Virus record (IMG/VR): IMGVR_UViG_2839594473_000019
Length of the DNA: 25,797 nt
Strand: one strand, 5' to 3'
Source: a virus
Taxonomy: Duplodnaviria; Heunggongvirae; Uroviricota; Caudoviricetes
Both the position numbers and the translations under genes were made by a program. The notes under the pieces were generated by a model that ran no database searches, had not been told where the DNA came from, and was given only the letters and a program-made list of their open reading frames with translations. Below, piece after piece: positions 13,233 to 13,649 of the stretch (positions are counted from its first letter, which is position 1; every line of letters begins with the position of its first letter).

Positions 13233-13649
13233 GTGTCTCAACCACTTTCGGAAATATTGACATGGGATGATGAACAATGGGAGGTATTTGTCCATGATTG
13301 GCTTATTGTCTGTAAATCAGATGATTACCCGTGGAGCGAACGTTTGGGAGGAGCTGGAGATAAAGGTAGAGACGTTGTTGGATATAAATCGGATCCTAAC
13401 GTAGAAGGTTATTCTTGGGATAATTATCAATGCAAACTGTACAAAAAAAGTTTAGGGTTCTCTGATGTTGTAGTTGAGTTTGGAAAACTTATCTATTTTA
13501 CTCTGAATGGTGATTATCCCATCCCTCAGAAGTACTTTTTTGTGGCACCCTATGATTTATCTACTACATTTTCTAATTTATTGAAAAATAAAAACGAGCT
13601 TAAAAAAGCAGTCCTTGATTCATGGGATTCAGCAATTTCAAAAAAATAA
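13233..13649 (+). CDS. Cargo ORF-A: PD-(D/E)xK-like nuclease-domain protein (138 aa), possibly the N-terminal part of a larger effector
   Basis: GTG start 7 nt after an AGGAG and 3 nt after the int stop; motif GDKGRDVVGY…NYQCKLY fits the D…(E/Q)xK nuclease signature; ends in an A7 tract overlapping ORF-B in the -1 frame. Confidence 0.6.
   Translation: MSQPLSEILTWDDEQWEVFVHDWLIVCKSDDYPWSERLGGAGDKGRDVVGYKSDPNVEGYSWDNYQCKLYKKSLGFSDVVVEFGKLIYFTLNGDYPIPQKYFFVAPYDLSTTFSNLLKNKNELKKAVLDSWDSAISKK

What the first reader, a model, noticed from the sequence alone, without database searches (positions are those of the whole stretch)
13622..13649. A7 tract at the ORF-A/ORF-B overlap: one extra A, or a -1 ribosomal slip, would fuse them into one ~340-aa effector
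ORF-A ends TCA AAA AAA TAA, and ORF-B runs in the -1 frame across the same seven-A run (13640-13646). Reading the tract as A8 makes the ORF-A frame continue directly into ORF-B (…DSAISKK ITKKIDIPLDDE…). ORF-B has no convincing ribosome-binding site of its own. This fits a slipped-strand pseudogene, a homopolymer sequencing under-call, or a programmed -1 frameshift on an A_AAA_AAA heptamer.
Basis: seen in the sequence. Interest (0 to 1): 0.5.

Follow-up and report, generated by a model that had tools for sequence, protein, structure and literature searches.

The report
Frameshift-broken Lamassu nuclease gene, O157:H7
The two overlapping ORFs are the halves of one anti-phage nuclease gene (Lamassu lmuA) that lost a single A from an A8 run in the ancestor of E. 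coli O55:H7/O157:H7. The neighbouring lmuB gene is also broken, so this is an ordinary decaying pseudogene, not a programmed frameshift or a sequencing error.

Summary
ORF-A (13233-13649) ends TCA AAA AAA TAA, ORF-B (13622-14239) runs in the -1 frame, and an eighth A would give one 335-aa protein. The window is E. coli O157:H7, P4-like prophage Sp2. ORF-A and ORF-B match the N- and C-terminal halves of one PADLOC LmuA profile, followed by LmuC (MC2) and a broken LmuB.

The decisive result is that the exact conceptual A8 fusion protein exists in public assemblies (434 contigs). Loci in Salmonella-type and Escherichia backgrounds carry int-lmuA(335 aa)-lmuC-lmuB(606 aa) intact. They differ from the window by only 13 positions in 4.65 kb. 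Three of these are the lesions:
- A8->A7 in lmuA
- TTA->TAA in lmuB
- A6->A5 in lmuB

About 300 complete O157:H7/O55:H7 genomes all carry A7, so it is not a sequencing under-call. Sister lineages carry further private lesions, which indicates neutral decay. No stimulatory RNA structure follows the tract, and more than 100 diverged homologues are single ORFs.

Verdict: a fixed slipped-strand frameshift pseudogene within a dead Lamassu operon. Adventitious low-level slippage on A_AAA_AAA cannot be excluded, but LmuB is truncated anyway. Interest is low. The practical value is an annotation fix (ECs_0290/ECs_0291 are one pseudogene).

The parts
12048..13229 (+). P4-type tyrosine integrase (intS) of prophage Sp2, immediately upstream of the Lamassu operon
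   Evidence: Pfam Arm-DNA-bind_3, Phage_int_M and Phage_integrase. Annotated intS ECs_0289 in Sakai.
13233..13649 (+). ORF-A: the 5' part of lmuA. It encodes the N-terminal Mrr-like PD-(D/E)xK nuclease domain (138 aa) and is ended prematurely by TAA 13647-13649 after the frameshift.
   Evidence: PADLOC LmuA PDLC03852 profile positions 10-140, E 9e-41. 71% identical to residues 3-138 of Xenorhabdus LmuA. Family-invariant G40 G42 D43 G45 R46 D47 ... Q66 C67 K68. Mrr_cat hits in 2 of 17 homologues. Strong RBS AGGAG at 13221-13225.
13640..13646 (+). A7 tract: the site of a 1-nt deletion from the ancestral A8. This is the lesion that splits lmuA.
   Evidence: Intact loci L008-L015 have A8 here and are otherwise 99.7% identical. 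All complete O157:H7/O55:H7 genomes have A7.
13647..14239 (+). The 3' part of lmuA, now in the -1 frame and annotated as ORF-B from ATG 13622. It encodes the middle region and the CTD6 coupling/oligomerisation domain. Codons 1-8 of the annotated ORF-B (MGFSNFKK) are out-of-frame readings of lmuA sequence. The exact switch point within the A-run is arbitrary.
   Evidence: Pfam CTD6 E 7.7e-30. PADLOC LmuA profile positions 141-333, E 3.9e-44. 65% identical to Xenorhabdus LmuA residues 138-335.
14239..14697 (+). lmuC (ABC-3C middle component 2), intact in the window
   Evidence: Pfam MC2 E 5.5e-30. PADLOC LmuC E 2.8e-36. One non-synonymous difference (I15M) from the intact allele.
14690..16509 (+). 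lmuB pseudogene (SMC/Rad50-like ABC ATPase), broken into three ORFs: 14690-15322, 15353-15943 and 15943-16509
   Evidence: The three pieces hit PADLOC LmuB PDLC03863 at profile positions 3-199, 231-412 and 428-608. Intact 606-aa version in L008-L014. Annotated as pseudogene ECs_0293 in Sakai.
15320..15322 (+). In-frame TAA nonsense codon in lmuB (codon 211). The intact allele has TTA Leu (T6A6 -> T5A7).
   Evidence: Absent from O55:H7 strains and from O157:H- 493/89, so it arose later than the lmuA frameshift.
15876..15880 (+). A5 run in lmuB where the intact allele has A6: a second 1-nt deletion that shifts the 3' third of lmuB into the -1 frame
   Evidence: Shared by all O55:H7/O157 genomes examined.

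Best explanation
ORF-A and ORF-B are the two halves of lmuA, the nuclease effector of a Lamassu (ABC-three-component) anti-phage system. The system sits in the defence hotspot of the P4-like prophage Sp2 of E. coli O157:H7.

What happened. In the common ancestor of O55:H7 and O157:H7, one A was lost from an A8 run (codons AAA AAA ATA = Lys-Lys-Ile), most plausibly by replication slippage. Translation from the strong RBS of ORF-A now stops at TAA right after the run. The product is a 138-aa Mrr-like nuclease domain without its C-terminal CTD6 domain. The CTD6-coding remainder lies in the -1 frame without a ribosome-binding site of its own.

Why the operon is dead. lmuB carries a second A-run deletion (A6->A5) of the same age and, in O157:H7 only, a TTA->TAA nonsense codon. 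Sister lineages have accumulated different extra lesions. This is the signature of neutral decay after loss of function.

What is shown and what is inferred.
- Shown: the one-gene ancestry, the direction of change (A8 -> A7), that the lesion is real and fixed, and the other lesions.
- Inferred from published Lamassu structures of a different subtype: the CTD is what LmuB2-LmuC sequesters and what tetramerises to activate the nuclease. The CTD-less ORF-A product should therefore be an inactive monomer.
For: (1) One family profile covers both ORFs end to end. PADLOC LmuA PDLC03852 (336 positions) matches ORF-A at 10-140 and ORF-B at 141-333. CTD6 lies in ORF-B, and MC2 and LmuB follow.

(2) More than 100 homologues of 324-381 aa cover 97-100% of the conceptual fusion. 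The nearest diverged one is 67% identical and also 335 aa. The junction aligns without a gap, and the A8 reading '...SISKKIT...' recovers the family consensus.

(3) The exact 335-aa fusion protein is in public data on 434 contigs. Seven of the eight loci fetched show a complete int-lmuA(335)-lmuC(152)-lmuB(606); the eighth (L015) ends within lmuB. The complete loci differ from window 12048-16700 at only 13 positions, among them +A in the tract, T at 15321 and +A at 15880.

(4) In 5,426 complete E. coli genomes, 309 carry the locus. All are at least 99% identical. The best match to an A8 query is 99.6%, so none has A8.

(5) Lesion history. A7 and A5 are shared by O55:H7, O157:H- 493/89 and O157:H7. 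TAA occurs only in O157:H7. Private extra lesions are an lmuC stop and a deletion at 15852 in DEC5A/RM12579, +A at 15819 in DEC5B, and A7->A6 at 13684 in NZRM4169.

(6) lmuB differs from the intact allele by five non-synonymous changes plus one nonsense change against one synonymous change.

(7) The 100 nt downstream of the tract fold no better than shuffles (z = +1.86; 199 of 200 shuffles fold at least as well).

(8) The AF2 model of the fusion is confident (pLDDT 89.9), and residue 138 falls in a loop after helix 120-135. Its best PDB matches are V. cholerae LmuA chains, then Cap4 nuclease domains.

(9) Literature: the LmuA CTD is sequestered by LmuB2-LmuC and mediates the active tetramer, and an isolated N-LmuA needs forced dimerisation to be toxic (bioRxiv 10.1101/2025.03.14.643221; PMC12663957).
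Against: The O55:H7/O157:H7 lineage is clonal, so conservation of A7 in about 300 genomes does not by itself show lack of function. A_AAA_AAA in the ORF-A frame is a genuine -1 slippery heptamer, and A7 can also support transcriptional slippage (PMC4066793), so some full-length LmuA may be made. lmuA has no substitutions relative to the Salmonella-context allele, while lmuB has seven. This is not significant (P about 0.085 under a uniform rate). No expression data were available. The claim that the ORF-A product is inactive rests on structures of a different subtype (Cap4-CTD7/MC3) from the one here (Mrr-like-CTD6/MC2).
Confidence: 0.93

Rival explanations
1. Programmed recoding. The A_AAA_AAA heptamer (or the A7 run at the transcription level) is used to make a set ratio of a short nuclease-only product and the full-length LmuA.
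For: The heptamer is in the correct phase in the ORF-A frame, and a -1 slip yields exactly the family-consensus protein. A 0-frame stop follows immediately. A weak SD-like GGGA lies 12 nt upstream, at 13624-13627. A_AAA_AAA frameshifting is documented in an IS cluster in E. coli (PMC4066793).
Against: Near-identical relatives (99.7% DNA identity) have A8 and a single in-frame gene, so A7 is a derived deletion. All diverged homologues are single ORFs. No downstream structure is present. lmuB in the same operon has a nonsense codon and a frameshift, so a recoded LmuA would have no partner. Further lesions accumulate in sister lineages, including a second frameshift inside ORF-B in NZRM4169.
Confidence: 0.03
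2. Phase-variable switch. The A8/A7 tract is a contingency locus that reversibly turns a costly abortive-infection system on and off.
For: Both A8 and A7 alleles exist. One Salmonella-context assembly (L022, GCA_020716925.1) is identical to the intact locus over 8.4 kb except for A7 at this same tract, which suggests recurrence. All indels seen in the operon fall in A-runs.
Against: Within O55:H7/O157:H7, about 300 complete genomes are all A7 with no revertant. Here the OFF state is locked by two more lesions in lmuB. An 8-nt run is short for classic phase variation. Indels hit several different A-runs, as expected for generic homopolymer fragility in a 31% G+C gene. L022 is a single assembly and could carry one consensus error.
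Confidence: 0.04
3. Sequencing or assembly artefact: the true sequence is A8 and one A was under-called.
For: Homopolymers are error-prone on some platforms. An A8 version of the protein exists in databases.
Against: A7 is present in all matching complete genomes, including the Sanger-era Sakai and EDL933 genomes and many later assemblies. The A8 loci are a distinct allele with intact lmuB in other chromosomal backgrounds; their proA is 78% or 97% identical to that of O55:H7.
Confidence: 0.01
4. Functional split gene. ORF-A and ORF-B are translated separately, with ORF-B made by termination-reinitiation at ATG 13622, and assemble non-covalently into a working effector.
For: ORF-B's ATG lies 25 nt upstream of the ORF-A stop, a geometry that can allow some reinitiation. 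PGAP annotates both as CDSs.
Against: ORF-B has no RBS. Its first 8 codons are out-of-frame lmuA sequence. No homologue is split this way. The partner LmuB is truncated.
Confidence: 0.01

Closest known systems
Lamassu / ABC-three-component (ABC-3C) defence systems, subtype with a Mrr-like nuclease-CTD6 effector (LmuA), middle component MC2 (LmuC) and SMC/Rad50-like LmuB
   Same: Gene order lmuA-lmuC-lmuB with overlapping stops and starts. Pfam CTD6 and MC2, and PADLOC LmuA/LmuB/LmuC profiles over full length. The predicted fold of the repaired LmuA is closest to solved V. cholerae LmuA chains. Intact alleles with 99.7% DNA identity exist.
   Different: In the window, lmuA is frameshifted and lmuB is broken twice, so the locus is a pseudogenised remnant. 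The solved and tested Lamassu systems (V. cholerae DdmABC, S. enterica Tennessee) are the Cap4-CTD7/MC3 subtype. A profile of this family finds no PDB sequence at E <= 0.01.
Slipped-strand (homopolymer) frameshift pseudogenes in decaying prophage cargo
   Same: A single-base loss in a mononucleotide run. The lesion is fixed in a clonal lineage, accompanied by other inactivating mutations in the same operon and by lineage-private extra lesions.
   Different: Nothing distinguishes it in kind. A 2026 survey reports that recognisable defence-gene pseudogenes are rare in P4 hotspots (<1% of P4 pseudogenes; PMC13586616), so this is an example of the less common route.
Programmed -1 ribosomal frameshift sites on A_AAA_AAN heptamers (dnaX, IS3-family transposases)
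   Same: An in-phase A_AAA_AAA heptamer, an overlapping -1 ORF, and a product of the slip that equals the full-length protein.
   Different: There is no downstream stem-loop or pseudoknot and no conservation of the two-ORF layout in relatives. The ancestral state is an in-frame A8.

Membership tests
Lamassu (LmuA-LmuC-LmuB) / ABC-3C system | Effector LmuA: an N-terminal effector domain fused to an ABC-3C C-terminal domain (CTD) in one polypeptide | tested here: not met
   The sequence content is all present: PADLOC LmuA profile positions 10-140 in ORF-A and 141-333 in ORF-B, and Pfam CTD6 in ORF-B. In the window it is split over two frames by A8->A7. It is met in the intact alleles L008-L015.
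Lamassu (LmuA-LmuC-LmuB) / ABC-3C system | Middle component (LmuC / MC family) encoded between or next to LmuA and LmuB | tested here: met
   Region 14239-14697: Pfam MC2 E 5.5e-30 and PADLOC LmuC E 2.8e-36.
Lamassu (LmuA-LmuC-LmuB) / ABC-3C system | Uninterrupted SMC/Rad50-like ABC ATPase LmuB of about 600 aa | tested here: not met
   Homologous over profile positions 3-608, but in three ORFs. The causes are TAA at 15320-15322 and the A5 deletion at 15876-15880. The intact 606-aa form is found in L008-L014.
Lamassu (LmuA-LmuC-LmuB) / ABC-3C system | LmuA fold resembling solved LmuA (nuclease NTD plus helical CTD) | tested here: inconclusive
   The AF2 model has pLDDT 89.9. The top Foldseek PDB hits are LmuA chains 9nxx, 9ny1, 9uxl and 9uxi (probability 0.85-0.99, 330-410 aligned columns), but TM is only about 0.3 and E is 8e-4 to 1.6e-2. 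The sequence profile finds no PDB hit.
Lamassu (LmuA-LmuC-LmuB) / ABC-3C system | Protection against phage or plasmid that depends on the LmuA catalytic residues and the LmuB ATPase | not testable with these tools
   Needs experiments. Predicted to be absent for the O157:H7 allele.
Programmed -1 ribosomal frameshift site | Slippery heptamer X_XXY_YYZ in phase with the upstream ORF | tested here: met
   TC A_AAA_AAA TAA at 13640-13646 in the ORF-A frame.
Programmed -1 ribosomal frameshift site | Stimulatory element: a downstream stem-loop or pseudoknot, or an upstream SD-like sequence at suitable spacing | tested here: not met
   Region 13647-13746 folds at -6.1 kcal/mol against a shuffle mean of -11.45 (z = +1.86). 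The only upstream candidate is a weak GGGA 12 nt before the heptamer.
Programmed -1 ribosomal frameshift site | Two-ORF overlap and slippery site conserved among diverged homologues | tested here: not met
   Of 120 listed homologues, essentially all are single ORFs of 324-381 aa. The Xenorhabdus orthologue has no A-run at this position (AGT AAA ATA TCA). The closest relatives have an in-frame A8.
Phase-variable contingency locus (simple-sequence repeat switch) | Both tract lengths found within one lineage or population, with reversibility | tested here: inconclusive
   O55:H7/O157:H7 carry only A7 in about 300 complete genomes. In the Salmonella context there are many A8 alleles and a single A7 assembly, L022. 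No read-level data were available.
Sequencing artefact (homopolymer under-call) | Tract length not reproducible across independent assemblies or platforms of the same lineage | tested here: not met
   A7 is reproduced in all 300 or so complete genomes that cover the region, including Sakai and EDL933.

The most novel reading that the evidence does not exclude
The A8 run in lmuA would be a mutational on/off hotspot that recurrently silences this costly abortive-infection system in independent lineages: once in the O55:H7/O157:H7 ancestor and once in a Salmonella strain, L022. In A7 carriers, adventitious -1 slippage on A_AAA_AAA would still yield a trickle of full-length nuclease. That LmuA would not be sequestered in O157:H7, where LmuB is truncated, so it might have some biological effect.
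Probability: 0.05. Interest if true: 0.4.

Novelty: already known. Interest (0 to 1): 0.12.

Why it matters
The main value is annotation and bookkeeping. In the O157:H7 reference genomes, ECs_0290 and ECs_0291 (and the PGAP equivalents 'hypothetical protein' and 'ABC-three component system protein') are listed as two genes. They should be one lmuA pseudogene next to the lmuB pseudogene. Profile-based defence-system finders may otherwise count a Lamassu system in O157:H7 that cannot work.

The locus is also a clean, datable example of stepwise decay of a defence system inside a P4-satellite hotspot. Two A-run deletions came before the O55/O157 split, a nonsense codon came later, and private lesions followed. 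A recent survey reports such decay to be uncommon. Nothing here changes the understanding of recoding or of Lamassu.

Tried and rejected
- Pfam on ORF-A alone gave nothing at E <= 0.1. The Mrr-like assignment rests on PADLOC LmuA, the conserved D...QxK motif, and Mrr_cat hits in 2 of 17 homologues.
- The search for related loci in genome contigs returned only one distant Clostridia locus and was uninformative.
- The PDB sequence-profile search found nothing.
- The first literature search for the heptamer paper failed on phrasing. A second search found it.
- IMG/VR locus L030 seemed to show A8 together with the O157-type TAA in lmuB. It has 26 gap openings over 7.8 kb relative to L008, so I discounted it as an error-rich sequence.
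- I considered whether the absence of substitutions in lmuA signals selection on ORF-A. It is not significant (P about 0.085).
- 'Partial' Salmonella and E. coli members of the protein cluster (P0124-P0134) are truncations at contig ends, not alternative frameshift products.
- ARAGORN finds no tRNA in the window. Only a 46-nt thrW 3' att copy is present.

Full report
**1. The observation**

- ORF-A starts at GTG 13233, seven bases after a strong AGGAG (13221-13225).
- It ends ...TCA AAA AAA TAA, with the A7 run at 13640-13646 and the stop at 13647-13649.
- ORF-B (first ATG 13622, stop 14237-14239) is in the -1 frame and spans the same run.
- Inserting one A gives a continuous 335-aa ORF that reads ...DSAISKKITKKIDIPLDDE....
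- The 22 bases before ATG 13622 contain no Shine-Dalgarno-like purine stretch.

An A7 run alone is unremarkable. The window has 24 A7/T7 matches against 17.5 +/- 6.3 in shuffles. The Lamassu region is only 31% G+C and holds several such runs.

**2. What the locus is**

The window is E. coli O157:H7. It is 100% identical to EDL933, Sakai and hundreds of other genomes over 13200-14300. It is identical to Sakai from 2261 to the end. The region lies in prophage Sp2, a P4-like satellite.

Family searches identify a Lamassu / ABC-three-component defence operon.
- ORF-B carries Pfam CTD6.
- The next gene (14239-14697) is middle component MC2.
- The following three ORFs are pieces of an SMC-like ATPase.
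- A single PADLOC LmuA profile of 336 positions matches ORF-A at positions 10-140 and ORF-B at 141-333.
- The three downstream ORFs match one LmuB profile at 3-199, 231-412 and 428-608.

So lmuA changes frame exactly at the A-run with nothing missing, and lmuB is in three pieces.

**3. Comparison with diverged relatives**

A search with the conceptual fusion finds more than 100 homologues of 324-381 aa that cover 97-100% of it. The nearest diverged one, from Xenorhabdus bovienii, is 67% identical and also 335 aa. In the alignment the junction is gap-free, and the A8 reading 'SISKKIT' matches the family consensus.

The Xenorhabdus locus has lmuA (335 aa), lmuC (152 aa) and lmuB (604 aa) in the same overlapping arrangement. 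A tblastn of its proteins on the window places three lesions:
- a frame switch in lmuA at residue 138
- an in-frame stop in lmuB where Xenorhabdus has Leu
- a frame switch near lmuB residue 400

**4. The decisive comparison**

An exact-sequence look-up shows that the conceptual 335-aa fusion protein is itself present in public assemblies, on 434 contigs. Eight such loci were fetched. Seven show integrase, lmuA (335 aa), lmuC (152 aa) and an uninterrupted lmuB (606 aa). The eighth, L015, ends inside lmuB.

Their chromosomal backgrounds differ. Most have a proA only 78% identical to that of E. coli O55:H7, a 416-aa ProA, and in one case a P22-type tailspike nearby. I read these as Salmonella. 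One metagenomic contig (L015) has proA 97% identical to E. coli.

Over window 12048-16700, the complete loci (L008-L014) differ from the window at only 13 positions:
- an extra A in the tract (A8)
- T instead of A at 15321 (TTA Leu instead of TAA stop)
- an extra A after 15880 (A6 instead of A5)
- ten substitutions

A8 is therefore the ancestral, in-frame state. The window's A7 is a derived one-base deletion, and lmuB has a nonsense mutation and a second A-run deletion.

**5. The lesion is real and fixed**

Of 5,426 complete E. coli genomes, 309 carry the locus, all at 99% identity or more. When queried with an A8 version of the tract, the best match is 99.6%, which means none has A8. These genomes include the Sanger-era Sakai and EDL933 sequences and many later assemblies, so a homopolymer under-call is excluded.

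**6. History of decay**

Representative genomes were compared with the intact allele.

| Lesion | Where found |
|---|---|
| A7 in lmuA, and A5 in lmuB | O55:H7 (DEC5A, DEC5B, RM12579), sorbitol-fermenting O157:H- 493/89, and O157:H7 |
| TAA at 15320-15322 | O157:H7 only |
| Further A deletion at 15852 | DEC5A and RM12579 |
| Internal stop in lmuC (14499) | DEC5A |
| Extra A at 15819 | DEC5B |
| A7 -> A6 at 13684-13690 inside ORF-B | NZRM4169 |

The two A-run deletions shared by all lineages predate the O55/O157 split. In the window, lmuB differs from the intact allele by five non-synonymous changes plus one nonsense change, against one synonymous change. This pattern of shared early lesions and lineage-private later ones is what neutral decay of a dead operon looks like.

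**7. Programmed frameshifting**

The heptamer A_AAA_AAA is in phase, and a -1 slip would produce exactly the full-length protein. A_AAA_AAA frameshifting is documented in an E. coli IS cluster, and A7 runs are under-represented in genes, possibly because of transcriptional slippage and a high indel rate (PMC4066793).

Several results argue against a programmed event.
- The 100 nt downstream fold worse than shuffled controls (z = +1.86).
- The only upstream SD-like element is a weak GGGA.
- No diverged homologue has a split gene.
- The closest relatives are in-frame.
- The required partner LmuB is truncated by a stop codon that recoding in lmuA cannot bypass.

I therefore rate programmed recoding at about 3%. 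Adventitious low-level slippage remains possible but would have no intact complex to join.

**8. How the intact system should work, and what the lesion does**

Published cryo-EM work covers Lamassu systems of another subtype (Cap4-CTD7/MC3). It shows that a single LmuA is held through its C-terminal domain by an LmuB dimer plus LmuC. On sensing DNA ends, LmuA is released and tetramerises through the CTD, which pairs two nuclease domains into an active site. An isolated N-terminal domain is toxic only if dimerised artificially (bioRxiv 10.1101/2025.03.14.643221; PMC12663957).

The AF2 model of the repaired protein is confident (pLDDT 89.9). It places residue 138 in a loop after helix 120-135, at the end of the alpha/beta nuclease domain. 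Its best PDB matches are V. cholerae LmuA chains, followed by Cap4 nuclease domains, although TM scores are low.

By inference, the 138-aa ORF-A product retains the catalytic D...QxK core but lacks the coupling and oligomerisation domain, so it should be an inactive monomer. This step is inferred, not shown.

**9. A possible recurrence**

One Salmonella-context assembly (L022, GCA_020716925.1) is identical to the intact locus over 8.4 kb except that this same tract is A7. It is either an independent slip at the same hotspot or a single consensus error. It keeps a small probability alive for a hypermutable or phase-variable reading.

An IMG/VR contig (L030) combines A8 with the TAA allele in lmuB. 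It has 26 gap openings in 7.8 kb and was discounted.

**10. Verdict**

It is an ordinary slipped-strand frameshift pseudogene in a decayed Lamassu operon. Novelty: already known in kind. The practical consequence is an annotation fix. Sakai lists ECs_0290 and ECs_0291 as separate hypothetical proteins while already flagging lmuB (ECs_0293) as a pseudogene, and PGAP does not flag lmuA at all. A 2026 survey reports that recognisable defence pseudogenes are rare in P4 hotspots (PMC13586616), so this is a tidy example of the less common route, but not a surprising one.

Noticed in passing
window 951-2260: Relative to Sakai, the window carries an insertion of about 1.31 kb inside the Sp1 intD pseudogene region. 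Its ORFs 1005-1331 (HTH_Tnp_1) and 1328-2218 (rve) form an IS3-family orfA/orfB pair, a family that genuinely uses -1 frameshifting. The window is therefore an O157:H7 strain other than Sakai.
   Followed up: partly
window 11840-11885: A 46-nt exact copy of the 3' part of tRNA-Thr thrW (tRNA positions 31-76) sits at the Sp1/Sp2 junction, just upstream of the Sp2 integrase. It is presumably the att repeat of the tandem prophages. ARAGORN finds no complete tRNA in the window.
   Followed up: partly
L022 (GCA_020716925.1, ABDQBZ010000001.1), tract at about 4408: A Salmonella-context locus identical to the intact allele L008 over 8.4 kb except that the lmuA tract is A7. This is a possible independent recurrence of the same frameshift with lmuB still intact, or a single consensus error.
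   Followed up: partly
L008-L014 compared with window 16510-23133: The same integrase-Lamassu module (99.7% DNA identity) sits on two different satellite backbones. In O157:H7 it is followed by ogr/delta, psu and sid genes before the primase. In the Salmonella-type loci the primase follows lmuB directly. This fits modular exchange of P4 hotspot cargo.
   Followed up: no
window 15315-15327 (TTTTTAAAAAAA): The lmuB nonsense mutation is a T->A change at the junction of a T-run and an A-run (T6A6 -> T5A7). This kind of run-boundary substitution is compatible with transient misalignment rather than a random point mutation.
   Followed up: no
window 1-11868 (prophage Sp1) and 11090-11559: The lambda-like prophage Sp1 is itself heavily decayed. 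The intD, O and P genes are annotated as pseudogenes in Sakai, and a partial IS3-family ISEc48 copy lies at its right end.
   Followed up: no
L030 (IMGVR_UViG_2923272612_000005): This contig has A8 in lmuA and A6 at the second lmuB site, but the O157-type T5A7 (TAA) at the first lmuB site. The contig has 26 gap openings in 7.8 kb relative to L008, so it is probably an error-rich assembly.
   Followed up: partly
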